Source: an uncultured Clostridia bacterium (GTDB lineage: Bacteria > Bacillota > Clostridia > TANB77 > CAG-465). Taken from it: 64,000 nt of DNA. The position numbers and the translations under genes were made by a program. Where the stretch lies: positions 44,809-108,808 of the forward strand of contig CANRQA010000001.1 in assembly GCA_947632635.1 (NCBI GenBank). The letters run 5' to 3'. The notes below the pieces were generated by a model, which saw nothing but the letters and a program-made list of their open reading frames with translations, ran no database searches and was not told the DNA's origin. Of the stretch, positions 41,595 to 50,412 are shown piece after piece (position 1 is the first letter of the stretch; every line of letters begins with the position of its first letter).

Positions 41595-41630
41595 TTTTAA
41601 TATAAAAATAAATTGAAGGAGTGATTTAAG

Positions 41631-44000
41631 TTGGAATATGATGTATTTATAAGTTATCATACAAAGTCATCATTAAATGTAACTAAATCAATTTGTAATG
41701 AATTAGAAAATAGAAAAATAAAATGTTGGTATGCACCACGTGACACTCTTGATGAGTATGCAAATAATATAATAAATGTAATAGAAAGATGTAAAGTTTT
41801 TTTACTTATTTTAAACGAGGAATCATCAAATTCATTTGATGTATTAAATGAAATAAATATTGTATGTGAAAGACTTAGAAAAAAGGAAGCAGTACATGTA
41901 ATTCCATTTCAAATCTCAGAGGGTGAAATAAGTAAAGATGCAAAATACTATTTAGGAAGGTTTCACTGGATAGATGCAATAACACCTCCACTTGAAAAAA
42001 GGATAAAAGAACTTGCTGACCGTATAGAATATGTATTAAATAATAATGTAAGCGCCTCACAAAGTGAGTATAAATATGATAATTATTTAACAGCATTAAA
42101 AAGTACAGCAATTTGCAATTTTACAGGCTTTATCGGTAGAAAAAGAGAATTAAAAGAAATTGAGGAAAATATTAAAAATTATGGTAAAGTATTTTTGTAT
42201 GGAATGGGTGGAATTGGAAAAAGTGAACTTGCTAAAAAATACGCAAAATTAAATGAAACAAAATATGATACGATTATTTTTTCAGTATATGAGAATAGTC
42301 TAAAAGATATGATTTTAAATGATAAGTTTTTCTATATTGAAAATTTCAAGAAAAAAGTATGTGAAGATGGCTCTTTAGAAAGTAATGATGAATTTTTTAT
42401 AAGAAAGTTAAATGAAATAAAACGCCTTTCAAATGAAAAAACTTTAATTATTATAGATAATTTTAATACAGATAATAAAGAGGAATTAAAGTTATTAATT
42501 GACGGAAATTATCATTTAATATTTACAACACGAAATGATTTTTCATATTCAAGACTTCCTGTTATAACTATAAATCAAATGGAAGATAAAGCTGATCTTA
42601 TTTCATTATTTGAAGAAAATTATATTATAAAATTAAAAGAAGAGGATAAAGAAATAGTATATGAGATTATAAATGAAATAAAAGGGCATACATTAGTAAT
42701 AACTCTTATTGCAAGTTTAATGAGGTTAACACGTATATCACCTAAAAAAATGTTAGAAAAATTAAAAGAGGGAATTACACCTGATATAAAAGGGGAAGTA
42801 GAATATAATTTTAAAGATTATGACTGTATATATAATTGTATTAAAACAGTATTTGATACTTCTAATTTAACAGAAAATGAAAAAGATATATTAATGAAAA
42901 TGTATTTTACTCAAACTTCAGGTATAGCTTTTGAAGAGTTTATGGAACTTGCTGATATAGAAGACGGTGAAGATATAAATAAATTAATAAATAAATCAAT
43001 GATTTTGTATAATTATGTATCTGACATTATATCTCTACATCCATTAATTTCAAGTGTTATAAAAAATGAGCTAAATCCTAACTTTGAAACTGCAAAGACT
43101 ATAATTTCAAATATAGCGAGTAGATACTCTTGGGACCTTGAACTTAAAGAAAAAGAAAAATATATACCATTAATTTTATCTATATATAGTAAGTTACCTG
43201 ATTTTACAATAAATGAGGCAACTGATTATGCAAAATTAAGTTTTTATTTACGTGATGTAAATGAATTTAAATTGTCAGAAGAAATAATTTTTAAAGTATT
43301 AGCTATATCAAAAACAACAAATGTTACAGAAAAGGAAATGGGTAATTTATATAAAGAAATTGAATATTTATATTATGTTCAAAATGACTTAGAAAAAGCA
43401 AAAGAGTACACTTTTAAAATGATGGAATGTGGTAAAGCGATAGGAACTCCAAGTTATTTACTTGTAGAAGCACTTAATAAACTTGCTTCAATTTATGTTG
43501 ATGAAGAAAATGCGGATATGGCAAAAAAATATAATGATGAATGTTGTGAAATAATGAAAGATGTACCTGATTTGCCAGCTACTCAATATGCTTTTTGCGA
43601 TTTATGTTATTGTAAAATTTACTATTTATTAGAAGATTATGATAAAGCTTTAGAATATGCAATCTCTTGTCATAAGAAATTTTCTGATATAAATAAATAT
43701 CATAACGTAAGCAGTGCTTTAAAAATGATTGGTGAAATATATTTAAAAAAACATGATATTCCTAATGCAATTAAAAATTTAGAAGAGTGTGTCCTTATAC
43801 GAGAAAAATATTGTAAATTTGATAATATCGCATTATTAAAATGCAAAGTGATACTTGCTAGTGTATATATAGAAGCTAAAGAATTTAAAAAAGCATATGA
43901 AATACTTGATAGTGTAAATAATATTCTAACTAATGGATCTTTTAATTGTAGTAATTTGCAAAATCAGGTTAGTGAAAAACTTAAATTATGTAATATTTGA
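41631..44000 (+). CDS. TIR domain - NB-ARC/STAND P-loop NTPase - TPR repeat protein (Avs/NLR-like candidate antiphage sensor)
   Basis: N-terminal EYDVFISYHTKSS...KIKCWYAPRD...VFLLILNEESSNSFDVLNEINIV (TIR); GFIGRKRELKEI...VFLYGMGGIGKSELAKKYA Walker A, LIIIDNFN Walker B, TTR motif (NB-ARC); C-terminal ~350 aa of TPR-like helical repeats; TTG start 6 nt after GAAGGAGTGA. Confidence 0.8.
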   Translation: MEYDVFISYHTKSSLNVTKSICNELENRKIKCWYAPRDTLDEYANNIINVIERCKVFLLILNEESSNSFDVLNEINIVCERLRKKEAVHVIPFQISEGEISKDAKYYLGRFHWIDAITPPLEKRIKELADRIEYVLNNNVSASQSEYKYDNYLTALKSTAICNFTGFIGRKRELKEIEENIKNYGKVFLYGMGGIGKSELAKKYAKLNETKYDTIIFSVYENSLKDMILNDKFFYIENFKKKVCEDGSLESNDEFFIRKLNEIKRLSNEKTLIIIDNFNTDNKEELKLLIDGNYHLIFTTRNDFSYSRLPVITINQMEDKADLISLFEENYIIKLKEEDKEIVYEIINEIKGHTLVITLIASLMRLTRISPKKMLEKLKEGITPDIKGEVEYNFKDYDCIYNCIKTVFDTSNLTENEKDILMKMYFTQTSGIAFEEFMELADIEDGEDINKLINKSMILYNYVSDIISLHPLISSVIKNELNPNFETAKTIISNIASRYSWDLELKEKEKYIPLILSIYSKLPDFTINEATDYAKLSFYLRDVNEFKLSEEIIFKVLAISKTTNVTEKEMGNLYKEIEYLYYVQNDLEKAKEYTFKMMECGKAIGTPSYLLVEALNKLASIYVDEENADMAKKYNDECCEIMKDVPDLPATQYAFCDLCYCKIYYLLEDYDKALEYAISCHKKFSDINKYHNVSSALKMIGEIYLKKHDIPNAIKNLEECVLIREKYCKFDNIALLKCKVILASVYIEAKEFKKAYEILDSVNNILTNGSFNCSNLQNQVSEKLKLCNI

Positions 44001-44125
44001 TTTGTTATAATTTGTTATAATTTGATGATATTTGACATAAAACTTGACATCCTTTTAAAAATTTGTTACAATATATTTATAACTAATTTTAATGTAAAAT
44101 AACTATTTTAGAGGGGGAAAGTTTA

Positions 44126-44329
44126 ATGAATATTATTCTTATAATTGCAGTAGTATTGTTGTTTTTAATTTATAGATTTATAGATATGTGTTTTCGGAGA
44201 TCATATTGCTATTATATTCAGCGCGGGCTTTATATTGATGTAAGAAATTTTGTAATTTCTATAAAGAAAATTATAATATTATTAATTTTTACATTACTTG
44301 TAATATTGCTCTTTAGATTACTTGTATAG
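44126..44329 (+). CDS. small 67-aa two-TM membrane protein with its own strong promoter and RBS
   Basis: TTGACA-N17-TACAAT (44058-44086), RBS GAGGGGGAAAG, terminator at 44333-44378. Confidence 0.45.
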   Translation: MNIILIIAVVLLFLIYRFIDMCFRRSYCYYIQRGLYIDVRNFVISIKKIIILLIFTLLVILLFRLLV

Positions 44330-44332
44330 TTT

Positions 44333-44378
44333 AAAAAATCGTTGATTTTACGAATGTAATTTCAACGATTTTTTTATT
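44333..44378. terminator. bidirectional rho-independent terminator
   Basis: AAAAATCGTTGA...TCAACGATTTTT perfect 12-bp stem, T-runs both sides. Confidence 0.65.
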
Positions 44379-45695: not shown

Positions 45696-47211
45696 TTATA
45701 TTTTAAAATCATTTTTAGAAATAATGGAGGCAAAAGCTAAATATGAAAGATATACAAAAATAAATATTGATATATTTATAACAAGTGAAAACATAGCATT
45801 TTCTAAATTAATTCCTATAAATTTAATTACATATCTTGAAAGGAAAATTCCAGATAGTGGAATAATTCCCCAAAGTAAATAATTAATTTTTATTTTTGAT
45901 ACTTTAATAAGCTGAATTACGCTAATTGTGGTATTTAATATCTCACTTACATATAGCACAACTATATAACCATTTATACCCATTATTGGAAGTAATATAT
46001 ATAACAGAAAAGTGCTTAAAAACAAATCTAAAATATTACATTTCATAACTGCCACTTGCTCATTTAGTCCTTTTAAAATGCCGTCTACAATTGTATCTAT
46101 ATACATTAGAATTATTAAAGGTGCAAGTAATTTAATAAAATGAACTACATTTGTATCGTTATAAATGATATTTGAAAGTGCGTCTGGAAAAGTAAAGAAA
46201 ACACCAAATACTAGTATTGCAAATATAAATGTAATCTTAAGAATTCTATTACTTATTCTTTTTATTTGTTTATTATCGCCTTTTGCATAAAAGGTAGAAA
46301 ATTCCGGTATTAAAAGCCCACTAATTGTTGTAATAATTACACTTGGAAAAAGTAGAAGGGGTAGAGCCATACCGACTTACTATTCCATAATCTGCAAGTG
46401 CTTTTTCACAAGACATACCAGATTTTTCAAGACGTAAAGGGATAATTAATTGTTTTAAAGTTGAAAGCCCTGAACGTATATATGAGGTAAGAGCTATTGG
46501 TGCTGCTATTTTTATTATTTCTTTTTTGTAGTTTGTGGTATCAGTAAAGTTATTATTACTTTCTTTTAAATATTTATTCTTATCATGTTTATATAATATG
46601 TAAATATAACTAAAAGAGGCAAGCTCAGAAATAACATCCCCTATAACTAGGCTAAGACAAGCATATTCAAGGCCTTTTGGTAAGAATATAGAAAGTATAT
46701 ATGAGGTTGCTATTATTTTTACAAATTGTTCTAATATTTGTGAAGATGCCGTTTTTATAACTCTCCTTACAGCACTAAAATACCCATTAATTGCAGCAGA
46801 CATTGCAATAAATGGTAGACCAATTGCAATAGCATAAAGTGGCTTTTTTGAAATTTTTCCATGCAAACATATATTAGTTATAAAATTAGAAAAGAGAAGA
46901 ATAACAAGCCCTGATATAATTCCAAGTATAAGACTATATAAAATACATTTCTTCATAACGCTTTTTGCTGATGCTTCTTCATTTTTTGCTAAAGTTTCAG
47001 TTACAAGCCTTGTTGCAGCAATACTAATTCCAGATGTTGCAAGAGTTATTGCAAAAAGATATACAGACATAATAAGCTGAAAAAGTCCAATTCCTTCTGC
47101 ACCTACTTTATTTGAAACATATACATTAAAAGACATACCTACACTTCGTATTATAAAAGAGGTAATAGTAAGTATTACACTATTAATTACAAATAATTTT
47201 GCCTTTCGCAT
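45696..47211 (-). pseudogene. spoVB: SpoVB/MOP-superfamily flippase (stage V sporulation protein B-like) split by an apparent +1 frameshift
   Basis: N-terminal ORF (47211..46321) MRKAKLFVINSVILTITSFIIRSVGMSFNVYVSNKVGAEGIGLFQLIMSVYLFAITLATSGISIAATRLVTE matches SpoVB; it ends in ...DYGIVSRYGSTPSTFSKCNYYNN* while the continuation MALPLLLFPSVIITTISGLLIPEFS (46370..45696) is in the +1 frame. Confidence 0.7.
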
Positions 47212-47415
47212 GTTATCACCTTTGAAGATAAATAATATTATTAAAATATATGTTAAAATATCGATATTCATTCTATTAAGATTTTAAAAATACAAAACAT
47301 AAAAATGAAATATAAATGAAAAAAAAGTGAAATATTTGTGTAAAAATATGTCTAAATTTGTTGACATGTAAATATAAAAGTAGTATAATAAGATGTAGAC
47401 ATAAGGAGTGAAAAG

Positions 47416-48543: not shown

Positions 48544-50412
48544 ATGACAACAAATACGTCATCAAACAAAACAAAGATTATCTTTGGTGTTGTTCTTGCA
48601 TGTATTACAGTATTACTTATCGTTTTACTTATATTACATTCAATTAACACAAATAGACTTGATAATCTTGTTGGAAATGTAGCAAAAGATGAAGAAGTAC
48701 AAAGCTTAAAAGAAATTACTGATGAAACTAGTGAGAAAGTTAATGAACTTACTGAATTAGATACAAAAGTATCTGATTTAAGAGCAGATATTTTAGATGC
48801 TCAAACAAGTATCACTGCAACACAAAAAGCAACATCTGATACAATTCAAGAAAAAATCGTTGATCTTGTAGATAATTACAACGATTTGAATAAAAAAGTA
48901 GATGGAGTTGTTGCAAAAGAAGAAACACTAAAGACAAAAGCAGAAGAAGAAACAGTTGTAGAACTTGCTAATTCTTTATATGCTAAAATAGAAGAAACTA
49001 GACAATCTTTAGAAGATATGATTGTAGAGGCTCAAATTGATATTAAACTTTATACTTCTCAAGTAGTTGAAAATGCAACAAATGAAGTAAACACAAACAC
49101 AAACCAAACAGTAAACGCAGCTAAAAATGAAATAAATACTAATACAAACCAAACAGTAAACGCAGCTAAAGAAGAAGTAAATACAAATACAAACCAAACA
49201 GTAAACGCTGCTAAAGAAGAAGTAAATACAAATACAAACCAAACAGTGAACGCTGCTAAAAATGAAATTAATACAAATACAAACAAAGAAGTAAACGCTG
49301 CTAAAGAAGAAGTAAACACAAATACAAACCAAACAGTAAACGCTGCTAAAAATGAAATAAATACTAATACAGACCAAACAGTAAACGCTGCTAAAAATGA
49401 AATAAATACTAATACAAACAAAGAAGTAAATGCAGCTAAAAATGAGATAAATACAAACACAGACCAAACAGTAAATGCAGCTAAAAATGAAATTAATACA
49501 AACACAAACCAAACAGTAAATGCTGCTAAAGAAGAAATTAATACAAATATTCTAAATGCACAAACATTTTTATCAACTAGAATTATTGAAGCAAGAGATA
49601 TTATAGATAAAAACATAATATCAGCAAGAGATAATATTAATAAAAATACAATATCAGCAAGAGATAATATTAACAAAAATATAATATCAGCAAGAGATAT
49701 TATAGGCAAAAATATAGTATCAGCAAGAGATATTGTAGATAAAAACATAGTATCAGCAAGAGATAATATTAACAAAAACATAATATCTGCAAGGGATATT
49801 ATAGGCAAAAATATAGTATCAGCAAGAGATATTGTAGATAAAAATATAATATCAGCAAGAGATATTATAGATAAAAACATAGTATCAGCAAGAGATAACA
49901 TTAATAAAAATCTTGCAGCTGGATTTAATGATTTAAAAGAAGAGCATTCAAAAATTACTGAAAGTATTACTAATTTAACAACTACTATTACTGGCTTGAG
50001 TACTAGAGTTGATGAATATAATACAGGTTTAAAGGCTAATACTGAAACTATAGATAAATTAATTGGTACTGGTAAAGAAGTTAATTTAACTAATATTAAT
50101 ACTAAAGTTGAAAATATAACTTCATTAATAGGTGTTAAAGAAGATACAGCTGGTAATGATACAGTATTTGGTAGATTTGCAAAAATATCTAGTGAAATAT
50201 CTGGTCTTGATAATAAGATTGATATTATAGACGGAAATGTTGATGCAATTCTTGATAGAGTTAATGGTGCATATAAATTAGATGCTGCACAAAGAAATTC
50301 TTTGATTTTATTAATTAAACAAGGACTTGACGCTAAATGGAATGAGTATACATTCAATTGGTACATAGTTGAATGGTTAAAATCATCTTTAAATGTTGCA
50401 GTAGTAGAGTAA
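48544..50412 (+). CDS. membrane-anchored coiled-coil/tandem-repeat surface protein
   Basis: N-terminal TM helix, coiled-coil segment, then 10 x 15-aa repeats (NE(V/I)NTNTNQTVNAAK) and ~10 x 10-aa repeats (ARD(I/N)I(D/N/G)KNI(I/V)S); RBS GGGGGAG. Confidence 0.6.
   Translation: MTTNTSSNKTKIIFGVVLACITVLLIVLLILHSINTNRLDNLVGNVAKDEEVQSLKEITDETSEKVNELTELDTKVSDLRADILDAQTSITATQKATSDTIQEKIVDLVDNYNDLNKKVDGVVAKEETLKTKAEEETVVELANSLYAKIEETRQSLEDMIVEAQIDIKLYTSQVVENATNEVNTNTNQTVNAAKNEINTNTNQTVNAAKEEVNTNTNQTVNAAKEEVNTNTNQTVNAAKNEINTNTNKEVNAAKEEVNTNTNQTVNAAKNEINTNTDQTVNAAKNEINTNTNKEVNAAKNEINTNTDQTVNAAKNEINTNTNQTVNAAKEEINTNILNAQTFLSTRIIEARDIIDKNIISARDNINKNTISARDNINKNIISARDIIGKNIVSARDIVDKNIVSARDNINKNIISARDIIGKNIVSARDIVDKNIISARDIIDKNIVSARDNINKNLAAGFNDLKEEHSKITESITNLTTTITGLSTRVDEYNTGLKANTETIDKLIGTGKEVNLTNINTKVENITSLIGVKEDTAGNDTVFGRFAKISSEISGLDNKIDIIDGNVDAILDRVNGAYKLDAAQRNSLILLIKQGLDAKWNEYTFNWYIVEWLKSSLNVAVVE
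49081..49530 (+). repeat. in-frame tandem repeat array, 45-nt unit x 10 (plus partial 11th)
   Basis: direct reading of near-identical 45-nt units starting aatgaa(g/a)t(a/t)aa(c/t)ac...gtaaa(c/t)gc(a/t)gctaaa. Confidence 0.9.
49588..49917 (+). repeat. in-frame tandem repeat array, 30-nt unit x ~10-11
   Basis: units tcagcaagagat(a/at)t(t/a)...aaaaa(c/t)ata(a/g)ta repeated head-to-tail. Confidence 0.85.

What the first reader, a model, noticed from the sequence alone, without database searches (positions are those of the whole stretch)
41631..44000. TIR-NB-ARC(STAND)-TPR protein: candidate single-gene antiphage (Avs/NLR-like) system
The 789-aa protein has an N-terminal TIR domain (DVFISYHTKSS...CWYAPRD...LILNEESSNSFDVLNEINIV), a central STAND/NB-ARC NTPase (GMGGIGKSELAKKYA Walker A, LIIIDNFN Walker B) and a C-terminal TPR-like sensor array. 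TIR-STAND and Avs proteins are established phage sensors whose TIR effector degrades NAD+ on activation. Its neighbours are cell-envelope genes rather than a defence island, and an independently transcribed 67-aa membrane protein lies immediately downstream.
Basis: partly seen in the sequence, partly recalled or inferred. Interest (0 to 1): 0.7.

Follow-up and report, generated by a model that had tools for sequence, protein, structure and literature searches.

The report
Lone bacterial TIR-NLR immune sensor gene
This gene encodes an intact bacterial relative of plant TIR-NLR immune receptors, an already known kind of probable anti-phage sensor; the unexpected part is that many of its relatives in other gut bacteria sit next to channel-like membrane proteins carrying a ryanodine-receptor-type domain, a partner that this copy lacks.

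Summary
ORF 41631-44000 (+, TTG start, 789 aa) encodes TIR, NB-ARC and TPR modules, each above Pfam's own cut-off. The TIR catalytic Glu (E74) is invariant in the family. A confident model (pLDDT 89.8) matches the plant TIR-NLRs RPP1 and Roq1, Apaf-1/CED-4 and Avs3/4/5.

It belongs to a family of several hundred proteins in gut Clostridia, with a conserved TIR and a hypervariable TPR end. It is an accessory gene in a variable slot of core chromosome, with no defence island nearby, and it matches no PADLOC Avs or NLR model. The 67-aa ORF has its own expression signals but is not conserved with the family.

Best reading: a single-protein NLR-like sensor whose TIR cleaves NAD+ after activation. 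This makes it a new member of a known kind.

One lead deserves follow-up. In 25 of 80 related loci, including 8 of the 12 closest relatives, the gene lies beside an unannotated membrane protein with 4 TM helices, a tandem-RCK gating ring and an RyR-like domain, often with a standalone RyR gene as well. 2026 preprints show that phage RyR domains bind TIR-made cADPR signals. The window has no such partner within its 64 kb.

The window protein also uniquely lacks two near-invariant Asp residues after Walker B.

The parts
41615..41621 (+). Ribosome-binding site GAAGGAG, 9 nt upstream of the TTG start
   Evidence: Read from the sequence.
41631..44000 (+). TIR-NB-ARC-TPR (NLR-like STAND) gene, 789 aa, TTG start
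   Evidence: ORF list. Pfam TIR_2, NB-ARC and TPR_12 all above cut-off. AlphaFold model with pLDDT 89.8. Foldseek matches to RPP1, Apaf-1, CED-4 and Avs3/4/5.
41631..42050 (+). TIR domain (aa 1-140), flavodoxin-like fold running from beta-A to alpha-E
   Evidence: Pfam TIR_2 at aa 5-117. DSSP of the model. PDB profile hits to TIR-STING, Cat1, TIR-1/SARM1 and plant TIR domains. It is the most conserved module, at 58% mean identity to the window protein.
41850..41852 (+). Codon of E74, the predicted catalytic glutamate of the TIR NADase site (motif SFDVLNEI)
   Evidence: Invariant in 40 of 40 relatives. Aligned to the catalytic-Glu position of known TIR enzymes. Coordinates verified.
42051..42125 (+). 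Poorly conserved linker between the TIR and NB-ARC modules (aa 141-165); only aa 140-152 are modelled as disordered
   Evidence: pLDDT below 50 at aa 140-152. 18% mean identity to the window protein.
42126..43070 (+). NB-ARC / STAND NTPase module (aa 166-480): nucleotide-binding domain plus ARC/winged-helix region
   Evidence: Pfam NB-ARC at aa 183-407. A single-stretch profile alignment to the plant TNL Roq1 over aa 2-473, E = 5.5e-13. Invariant R301 (TTR motif), H353 (GHTL, equivalent to GLPL) and H470-P471 (LHP, equivalent to MHD).
42201..42224 (+). Walker A / P-loop, GMGGIGKS
   Evidence: G191, G193, G194, G196 and K197 are invariant.
42444..42467 (+). Walker B, LIIIDNFN. D276 is intact, but the window has N279, and also K283 just downstream, where the family has Asp
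   Evidence: D279 is found in 38 of 40 sequences and D283 in 39 of 40. The window is the only sequence lacking both.
43035..43043 (+). LHP motif, the counterpart of the NB-ARC MHD motif
   Evidence: H470 and P471 are invariant. Aligned to the Roq1 'MHD' motif. Coordinates verified.
43071..44000 (+). C-terminal TPR-like array (aa 481-789; 16 helices, about 8 repeats), the presumed sensor
   Evidence: Pfam TPR_12. DSSP of the model. It is the least conserved module, at 22% mean identity to the window protein.
44044..44072 (+). Best sigma-70-like promoter match of the region (TTGACA-17-TACAAT, extended TG), in front of ORF67
   Evidence: Note that the total number of promoter-like sites is no higher than in shuffled sequence.
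44126..44329 (+). 67-aa ORF with two hydrophobic segments; doubtful as part of the system and not conserved with the family
   Evidence: No homologue in any family locus or syntenic locus, and only 1 of 61 loci has any comparable small ORF. Not called by the gene caller on identical contigs. No Pfam or PADLOC hit.
44333..44374 (.). Hairpin flanked by an A-run and a U-run: a probable bidirectional intrinsic terminator closing the TIR-STAND/ORF67 unit and the convergent 420-aa gene
   Evidence: RNA fold of -17.7 kcal/mol, z = -5.5, with 0 of 200 shuffles folding as well.

Best explanation
The gene encodes an accessory, single-protein NLR-like immune receptor of a gut Clostridium.

Proposed mechanism:
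1. In the resting state the NB-ARC switch holds the protein as an inactive monomer.
2. The fast-evolving C-terminal TPR array binds an invader protein, most likely from a phage.
3. This lets the NB-ARC module exchange or hold ATP and oligomerise.
4. Oligomerisation brings the N-terminal TIR domains together into composite active sites around E74.
5. The TIR domains cleave NAD+, and the cell stops supporting phage growth (abortive infection).

What is shown: the domain architecture, intact catalytic and switch motifs, the fold, family-wide sensor diversification, and the gene's accessory status.

What is inferred: the trigger, oligomerisation, NADase activity and the antiphage outcome. These come from characterised TIR-STAND/Avs, TIR-NLR, TIR-II and plant TNL proteins.

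Whether the lethal step is NAD+ depletion itself or a cADPR-type signal read by a separate effector is left open. See the first rival explanation.
For: - Domains pass the curated cut-offs.
- E74 is invariant and aligns with catalytic Glu residues.
- Walker A, D276, R301 (TTR), GHTL and LHP (MHD-like) are invariant.
- The model has pLDDT 89.8.
- Fold matches are to STAND-TPR PH0952, the plant TIR-NLR RPP1, Apaf-1, CED-4, Avs3, Avs4 and Avs5.
- The best PDB profile hit is the plant TNL Roq1, aligned over TIR plus NB-ARC in one stretch.
- There is a conservation gradient: TIR 58%, NBD 47%, ARC 39%, TPR 22%.
- The family has several hundred members (319 protein clusters; at least 357 loci in species-representative genomes). 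Five genomes hold several loci and three loci have tandem duplicates.
- The gene is absent from the same slot in three related genomes compared; the SpoVB-like, CTP-synthase side is conserved in all three and the VTT/ArsP side in two.
- Single-gene TIR-NLR and TIR-TPR(-ATPase) proteins are experimentally validated anti-phage systems that depend on the TIR active site (PMC9122126; PMC11350192).
- Under the effector-domain criterion of PMC13581612, a STAND clade in which at least 50% of members carry a recognised effector domain counts as defence-associated. This family would plausibly qualify, since TIR is an established defence effector.
Against: - No defence genes lie within about 7 kb on either side, and the 64-kb window is core chromosome.
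- No PADLOC Avs, NLR or TIR-NLR model matches. The only hit is a faint ThsB TIR match at E = 0.007.
- No full-length relatives occur on phages, plasmids or viral contigs.
- The window protein uniquely lacks two near-invariant Asp residues after Walker B (D279N, D283K), so its NTPase switch may behave atypically or be impaired.
- The gene may be co-transcribed with cell-wall genes: VanY and the LiaF-like gene lie upstream on the same strand with gaps of 30 and 36 nt.
- There are no experimental data for any member of this family.
Confidence: 0.6

Rival explanations
1. The protein is the sensor-synthase arm of a two-part, Thoeris-like signalling system. On activation the TIR domain makes a cADPR-type nucleotide. 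That nucleotide is read by the RyR-like domain of a separate membrane protein (4 TM helices, a tandem-RCK gating ring and an RyR-like domain), which collapses ion homeostasis. Small standalone RyR proteins buffer or hydrolyse the signal. In the window's genome the effector would be encoded elsewhere, acting in trans.
For: - RyR-domain ORFs occur in 25 of 80 family loci. They make up 21 of 140 genes at position +/-1 versus 4 of 651 genes three or more positions away (odds ratio 28.5, P = 3e-13).
- 8 of the window protein's 12 closest relatives have the partner, with gaps of -11 to +41 nt in seven of them and one intervening gene in L012.
- RyR and TIR_2 are the only recurrent Pfam families among 135 immediate neighbours.
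- The same partner family also sits next to TIR-MORN, TIR-STING and TIR-WD40 genes.
- The partner keeps the H-x2-W, H and D ligand-binding residues.
- Phage RyR domains bind or cleave 2'/3'cADPR (PMC13232231; 10.64898/2026.06.04.730250).
- There is a precedent for a trans arrangement. MAG CANRKM01 carries a partner-less TIR-STAND (L015) on one contig and an RyR-TM gene on another.
- An RyR-TM plus RyR pair with no adjacent TIR (L099) occurs in the same ENA sample as the window's own contig L009, with similar coverage and composition.
Against: - No RyR-like ORF exists anywhere in the 64-kb window.
- The window protein and its two closest relatives (L010, L011) all lack the partner.
- Assigning L099 to the window's genome is unproven, because related Clostridia have equally similar composition.
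- One RyR-TM member (L100) has no TIR gene in the 7.4 kb of flank held.
- No biochemical evidence shows that host RyR domains bind TIR products, or that this TIR makes a cyclic product.
- Single-gene TIR-STAND proteins are sufficient for defence in other systems.
Confidence: 0.25
2. The protein has a non-immune regulatory or developmental role. It would be a STAND switch tied to the neighbouring cell-envelope genes (VanY, LiaF-like), for example triggering NAD+-dependent growth arrest or programmed death during envelope stress or sporulation.
For: - The gene is on the same strand as VanY and the LiaF-like gene, with gaps of 30 and 36 nt and no terminator-like site between them.
- There is no defence island.
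- Defence and non-defence STAND clades are interspersed in the STAND phylogeny (PMC13581612).
Against: - The VanY/LiaF linkage is not conserved. None of the 80 family loci has a LiaF-like match, and only two have a VanY-like match within 5 kb.
- In the syntenic locus L097 the LiaF-like gene is present without any TIR-STAND.
- The protein has no DNA-binding or other regulatory output domain, only TIR.
- A hypervariable sensor and multiple paralogues per genome are typical of immune receptors.
Confidence: 0.08
3. The gene is a decaying or functionally altered orphan. It has lost its RyR partner, and its NTPase switch is compromised by the D279N and D283K changes, so it is inactive or only weakly active.
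For: - The window protein is the only one of 40 sequences lacking both near-invariant Asp residues after Walker B.
- It has no partner, although 8 of its 12 closest relatives do.
Against: - The 789-codon frame is fully open.
- All other invariant residues of TIR and NB-ARC are retained.
- An identical protein was recovered from four independent assemblies.
- The model is confident throughout.
- From my own knowledge, Walker-B acidic substitutions in plant NLRs more often give hyperactive than dead receptors.
Confidence: 0.07

Closest known systems
Plant TIR-NLR receptors (Roq1, RPP1)
   Same: Same N-to-C order of TIR and NB-ARC. The profile aligns to Roq1 in one stretch across the catalytic Glu, Walker A, Walker B, TTR and MHD-like motifs (E = 5.5e-13). 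Foldseek matches RPP1 at E = 1.4e-13.
   Different: The sensor is a short TPR array of about 305 aa rather than LRR plus a C-terminal jelly-roll domain. Sequence identity is only 12-17%. The host is a bacterium. The Walker B motif is DNFN/DNFD rather than DDV.
Bacterial Avs (antiviral STAND) proteins, e.g. Avs3, Avs4 and Avs5
   Same: Three-part logic of effector, STAND NTPase and alpha-helical repeat sensor, all in a single gene. Fold similarity is E = 1.5e-9 to 4.4e-8.
   Different: No PADLOC Avs model matches. The NTPase belongs to the NB-ARC/AP-ATPase type. The protein is far smaller: 789 aa against roughly 1500-2000 aa for the solved Avs3 and Avs4 chains. Its sensor is shorter than the 400-aa minimum used for sensor clustering in PMC13581612. 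The trigger is unknown.
E. coli P4-satellite 'TIR-NLR' system (Rousset et al. 2022) and the 'TIR-II' TIR-TPR(-ATPase) systems (PMC11350192)
   Same: Single proteins combining TIR with an NLR-like ATPase and/or TPR. They are shown to block phages, and TIR-II needs the TIR active site.
   Different: They come from Proteobacteria and sit on satellites or defence hotspots. No sequence-model match to the window protein was found. The window gene sits in core chromosome of a low-GC Clostridium.
Thoeris (ThsB TIR plus ThsA effector)
   Same: A TIR enzyme whose cADPR-type product could activate a separate effector. This is the logic suggested by the family's RyR-domain partners. There is a faint ThsB model hit (E = 0.007).
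   Different: Here the TIR is fused to its own STAND-TPR sensor. No ThsA model was among the 25 of 30 PADLOC families listed for the window, and no PADLOC model at all matched the ten nearest ORFs. The candidate effector in relatives is a 4-TM, tandem-RCK, RyR-like protein, which is not a known Thoeris effector.
Phage RyR-domain proteins RyDEP and RyR Tad (2026 preprints)
   Same: The family's neighbours carry the same PF02026 domain. In the standalone 94-aa form the ligand-binding residues have the same spacing: H-x2-W, then H 22 residues on, then D 17 residues on.
   Different: Those are phage anti-defence sponges or glycosidases. The proteins here are host-encoded and operonic with TIR sensors, and many are fused to a membrane and RCK module. 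None is present in the window.

Membership tests
TIR-domain NADase (PF13676 / PF01582) | Sequence match to the TIR profile above the curated threshold | tested here: met
   TIR_2 scores 43.2 bits against a cut-off of 28, over aa 5-117. PF01582 scores 20.7 bits, just under its cut-off of 21.3.
TIR-domain NADase (PF13676 / PF01582) | Conserved catalytic glutamate in alpha-C | tested here: met
   E74 is invariant in 40 of 40 and 32 of 32 sequences. It aligns to the Glu of TIR-STING, Cat1, TIR-1/SARM1, SPARTA TIR-APAZ and Roq1. It lies in helix 69-83 of the model.
TIR-domain NADase (PF13676 / PF01582) | NAD+ cleavage or cyclase activity | not testable with these tools
   This needs a biochemical assay.
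NB-ARC / AP-ATPase clade of STAND NTPases | Profile match above threshold, plus the Walker A, Walker B hhhhD, TTR (sensor 1), GLPL-like and MHD-like motifs | tested here: met
   NB-ARC scores 32.2 bits against a cut-off of 23.5. The motifs are GMGGIGKS, LIIID276, TTR301, GH353TL and LH470P. The alignment to Roq1 runs through all of them. One deviation: the second acidic residue is missing, since the family has DNFD and the window has DNFN.
NB-ARC / AP-ATPase clade of STAND NTPases | NBD-HD-WHD fold | tested here: met
   Foldseek matches to Apaf-1, CED-4, RPP1, plant CNL resistosomes and PH0952, with E from 1e-8 to 7e-15.
Avs (antiviral STAND) families as curated in PADLOC | Match to an Avs, NLR or TIR-NLR defence HMM | tested here: not met
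   PADLOC v2.0.0 returns only a ThsB TIR-like hit at E = 0.007.
Avs (antiviral STAND) families as curated in PADLOC | Effector, STAND and repeat-sensor architecture in one polypeptide | tested here: met
Avs (antiviral STAND) families as curated in PADLOC | Recognition of a phage protein and protection from phage | not testable with these tools
   This needs phage challenge or co-expression screens.
Defence-island resident | Known defence genes within about 5 kb | tested here: not met
   None of the 10 nearest ORFs hits a PADLOC model. The window encodes core housekeeping genes. Across the family, the immediate neighbours are mostly housekeeping genes, apart from RyR and TIR genes.
Thoeris | A ThsB-type TIR gene adjacent to a ThsA effector (SIR2-SLOG or Macro-TM) | tested here: not met
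   No PADLOC model matches the nearest ORFs. The TIR domain is fused to a STAND-TPR module.
Candidate TIR plus RyR-TM two-gene module (seen in relatives; not a described family) | An RyR-domain (PF02026-like) gene adjacent to the TIR gene | tested here: not met
   No RyR-like ORF occurs in the 64-kb window by tblastn or by an iterated HMM. It is present in 25 of 80 related loci.

The most novel reading that the evidence does not exclude
The window gene belongs to a clade whose normal state is an undescribed Thoeris-like module of gut Clostridia. A TIR sensor (STAND-TPR, STING, MORN or WD40 type) would make a cADPR-type signal. A host RyR-domain, tandem-RCK, 4-TM channel-like protein would read it, and small RyR proteins would act as buffers or hydrolases. 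This would be a bacterial counterpart of the debated cADPR-ryanodine-receptor axis of animals. On this reading the window copy is a sensor that signals in trans to an RyR-TM/RyR pair elsewhere in the genome, with L099 from the same sample as the candidate.
Probability: 0.25. Interest if true: 0.8.

Novelty: new member of a known kind. Interest (0 to 1): 0.45.

Why it matters
On its own the gene adds one more uncharacterised member to the well-charted class of bacterial NLR-like TIR-STAND sensors. It is of some note as a compact, plant-TNL-like example from poorly studied gut Clostridia.

The wider value lies in its family context. There is a statistically strong and modular genetic link between several types of TIR sensor and an unannotated, large family of channel-like proteins carrying an RyR-like domain (1,687 cluster representatives at E <= 1e-30).

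RyR domains were shown only in 2026 to bind TIR-made cADPR signals, and then only in phage proteins. These loci therefore offer a direct way to test two questions: whether host RyR domains act as receptors for TIR signals, and whether cADPR-RyR signalling has a prokaryotic immune origin.

Tried and rejected
- **Sequence searches against PDB.** Searches with the single protein or its TIR domain gave nothing significant. The full-length profile was swamped by generic TPR hits. Only the TIR-only and TIR+NOD profiles were informative.
- **PDB entry 9m0n/9umd.** This 824-aa TIR-TPR protein looked like a possible solved homologue. It aligns only over the TIR and a degenerate P-loop (GLIGVGRRS), and no paper describing it is in the held library.
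- **ORF67 as a conserved partner.** Rejected.
- **The LiaF-like or VanY genes as conserved partners.** Rejected.
- **Phage, plasmid or viral carriage of the family.** Not found.
- **Window-wide PADLOC hits.** The RecD-like, PDC-S49/S68, mad and other hits come from unidentified ORFs elsewhere in the window. None is among the ten ORFs nearest the gene.
- **Assigning the RyR-TM contig L099 to the window's genome by composition.** Not discriminating, because related species score equally.
- **A first tree-building script** timed out. It was replaced by UPGMA on identities.
Full report
**1.
The + strand ORF 41631-44000 encodes 789 aa. It starts at TTG, 9 nt after a GAAGGAG ribosome-binding site. 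The N-terminus matches the family consensus MxxDVFISYH.

Pfam places three domains above their curated cut-offs:
- TIR_2, aa 5-117, 43.2 bits (cut-off 28)
- NB-ARC, aa 183-407, 32.2 bits (cut-off 23.5)
- TPR_12, 35.2 bits (cut-off 30.1)

**2. Catalytic and switch residues are intact.**
In an alignment of 40 family members, the following residues are invariant:
- E74 in the TIR domain
- the Walker A residues G191, G193, G194, G196 and K197
- Walker B D276
- the sensor-1 Arg of the TTR motif (R301)
- H353 (GHTL, the GLPL equivalent)
- H470-P471 (LHP, the MHD equivalent)

A profile of the TIR domain hits solved TIR enzymes, and E74 falls on their catalytic Glu column. These include TIR-STING, Cat1, C. 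elegans TIR-1/SARM1 and SPARTA TIR-APAZ. A TIR+NOD profile aligns in one stretch (aa 2-473, E = 5.5e-13) to the plant TIR-NLR Roq1, running through all of these motifs.

**3. Structure.**
AlphaFold2 with the family alignment gives mean pLDDT 89.8. The model shows a canonical TIR fold, a disordered linker (aa 140-152), an NBD/ARC module and 16 C-terminal helices, or about 8 TPR-like repeats. Foldseek against PDB returns the following:
- the archaeal STAND-TPR protein PH0952 (E = 7e-15)
- the plant TIR-NLR RPP1 (E = 1.4e-13)
- Apaf-1 and CED-4
- plant CNL resistosomes
- Avs3, Avs4 and Avs5

**4. The family.**
The word-indexed search finds 319 relatives with the same architecture and length (about 790-830 aa). 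The nearest non-identical one is only 52% identical. Almost all come from metagenomes, and one is named 'TIR domain-containing protein [Lachnospiraceae]'.

A scan of species-representative genomes finds at least 357 loci, nearly all in gut Clostridia: Lachnospiraceae, Oscillospiraceae, Acutalibacteraceae and unnamed Clostridia. Cultured examples are Faecalicatena contorta, Dorea amylophila and Ruminococcus turbiniformis. Five genomes carry two or three loci, and three loci have tandem duplicates.

Mean identity to the window protein falls along the protein: TIR 58%, NBD 47%, ARC 39%, TPR 22%. This is the signature of a conserved effector and switch with a diversifying sensor.

No full-length relatives occur in phage, plasmid or IMG/VR collections.

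**5. The locus in the window.**
The window is core chromosome, encoding CTP synthase, aldolase, LysRS, LepA, GreA, SpoVT and RNase HII among others. The ten nearest ORFs have no PADLOC hit.

Upstream, on the same strand, VanY-Big_2 and a LiaF-like gene are separated by gaps of 30 and 36 nt, with no terminator-like site between them.

In three related genomes the conserved 420-aa downstream neighbour is 82-83% identical. All three keep the SpoVB-like, CTP-synthase and VTT genes on that side, and two (L096, L098) also keep VTT and ArsP_2 beyond the slot. The slot itself holds other cell-envelope genes and no TIR-STAND: LytR in two genomes, and GH25-LysM, DUF4097 and LiaF in the third. The gene is therefore an accessory occupant of a variable slot, without recognisable mobile-element genes beside it.

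**6. The 67-aa ORF.**
It has the following features:
- the best promoter-like site of the region
- a strong ribosome-binding site
- two hydrophobic segments
- a strong bidirectional terminator hairpin after it (-17.7 kcal/mol, z = -5.5)

No terminator separates it from the TIR-STAND gene.

Against its being a partner:
- It has no Pfam or PADLOC hit.
- It was not called on identical contigs.
- It has no homologue in any of the roughly 100 loci held.
- Only 1 of 61 evaluable family loci has any comparable small ORF downstream.

It may be a real small gene, but it is not part of a conserved system.

**7. What actually recurs next to the family.**
Clustering the neighbours of the 80 genome loci, followed by an iterated HMM, shows RyR-domain ORFs in 25 loci. 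There are three forms:
- a membrane protein of about 590-700 aa
- a membrane protein of about 470-520 aa
- a standalone protein of about 94 aa that scores 120 bits on PF02026

The association is strongly positional. RyR-domain ORFs are 21 of 140 genes at +/-1 against 4 of 651 genes three or more positions away (odds ratio 28.5, P = 3e-13).

RyR and extra TIR proteins are the only recurrent Pfam families among 135 immediate neighbours, with 11 members each.

In the window's own clade (at least 47% identity over aa 1-480), 8 of 12 relatives have the partner. Seven have it directly adjacent, with gaps of -11 to +41 nt, and in L012 one gene intervenes. The window and its two closest relatives, L010 and L011, do not have it. 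L010 instead has a second TIR protein directly upstream. L015 and L070 also lack it, but their upstream flanks are short.

**8. The partner protein.**
The 613-aa form has 35 word-indexed relatives, all 'hypothetical'. An exhaustive profile search finds 1,687 cluster representatives at E <= 1e-30.

Other members of this partner family sit beside different TIR sensors or other genes:

| Locus | Neighbour of the RyR-TM gene |
|---|---|
| L090 | TIR-MORN |
| L092, L093 | TIR-STING |
| L094 | TIR-WD40, plus a standalone RyR gene |
| L100 | Abi_2 protein; no TIR gene in the 7.4 kb of flank held |
| L099 | Only a standalone RyR gene |

[quoted passage not shown] In what I read and searched of the first, and in the RyR passages of the second, I found no description of host RyR-domain proteins linked to TIR genes. 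My literature searches found no other such report.

**9. Relevance to the window.**
No RyR-like ORF exists in the 64 kb. Two observations keep a trans arrangement open:
- MAG CANRKM01 has a partner-less TIR-STAND (L015) on one contig and an RyR-TM gene on another.
- L099, an RyR-TM plus RyR pair without an adjacent TIR, comes from ENA sample ERZ27249546. The same sample holds contig L009, which carries the window's own genes. Coverage is similar (5.2x versus 4.0x), GC is 24.7% and the tetranucleotide correlation with the window is r = 0.990.

Composition does not discriminate between related species, so this remains a lead and not a result.

**10. An unexplained deviation.**
The family's Walker B region reads hhhhD-N-F-D-x3-D. 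The window alone has N279 and K283 in place of the two Asp residues, which are found in 38 and 39 of the 40 sequences respectively. Every other key residue is intact. This could alter NTP hydrolysis and hence the switch kinetics. From my own knowledge, such changes in plant NLRs often give autoactive receptors. It could also mark drift in a partner-less copy.

**11. Comparison with known systems and verdict.**
The kind is known:
- STAND NTPases with effector and TPR-like sensor domains are charted at scale. There are 589 clades, of which 198 are defence-associated, and carrying a recognised effector domain is itself a criterion (PMC13581612).
- Single-gene TIR-NLR and TIR-TPR(-ATPase) proteins have been shown to defend E. 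coli.

The window protein is not a member of any curated Avs or NLR defence model. By profile alignment it is closest to plant TNLs.

I rate it a new member of a known kind. The most likely mechanism is trigger-dependent oligomerisation followed by TIR NAD+ cleavage (confidence about 0.6). The main open alternative is that the TIR product signals to an RyR-domain channel-like effector, as the family context suggests (about 0.25).

Interest in the gene itself is moderate. The family-level link between TIR and RyR-domain proteins is the part worth pursuing.

Noticed in passing
[not shown]
   Followed up: partly
L012:4759-5043; L016:7801-8085; L017:5399-5677; L059:9697-9999; L099:3414-3701: Standalone RyR-domain proteins of about 94 aa (PF02026, up to 120 bits) lie in the same TIR / RyR-TM clusters. 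In the L012 copy read here, the H-x2-W, +22 H and +17 D residues are spaced exactly as the cADPR-binding and catalytic residues of phage RyDEP and RyR Tad. The L099 copy has Thr in place of the second His.
   Followed up: partly
L099 (ENA ERZ27249546, NODE_3838): An RyR-TM plus RyR pair with no adjacent TIR gene occurs in the same metagenome sample as the window's own contig L009. Coverage (5.2x versus 4.0x), GC content and tetranucleotide usage are similar. It may be the missing partner of the window gene, encoded elsewhere in the same genome.
   Followed up: partly
window 42463-42479 (aa 279 and 283): The window protein alone among 40 relatives has N279 and K283 in place of two near-invariant Asp residues just after Walker B.
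   Followed up: partly
window 44001-44075: Directly after the TIR-STAND stop codon there is a tandem 10-bp repeat (TTTGTTATAA twice, then TTTGAT) and two TTGACA hexamers 9 nt apart, in front of ORF67. This could be an operator or promoter region.
   Followed up: no
window 45696-47271 (- strand): The SpoVB-like MATE/Polysacc_synt flippase appears split into two overlapping ORFs of 316 and 224 aa. Orthologous loci L096 and L098 have a single 445-aa gene. This is a possible frameshift or pseudogene, or a sequencing error.
   Followed up: no
window 48544-50412 (+ strand): A 622-aa protein has long, near-perfect tandem repeats: 'NTNQTVNAAKxEINT' units followed by 'IISARDxIxKN' units. The opposite strand carries long spurious ORFs. 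It is probably a repetitive surface or coiled-coil protein.
   Followed up: no
L092:6880-7989 and L093:5792-6901: A TIR-STING protein (CAP12-PCTIR_TIR plus prok_STING), normally a CBASS effector, sits 12 nt upstream of an RyR-TM gene. No cyclase gene is evident among the neighbouring genes.
   Followed up: no
L002:4157-4699 (also L003, L004): The closest non-identical relative (P0003, 52% identity) is divergently adjacent to a NUDIX hydrolase gene, a family that can act on ADP-ribose. This could be coincidence.
   Followed up: no
PDB 9m0n / 9umd: This solved 824-aa 'tetratricopeptide repeat protein' has an N-terminal TIR and a degenerate P-loop (GLIGVGRRS). No paper in the held library describes it. 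It may be a structure of a TIR-II-type defence protein.
   Followed up: partly
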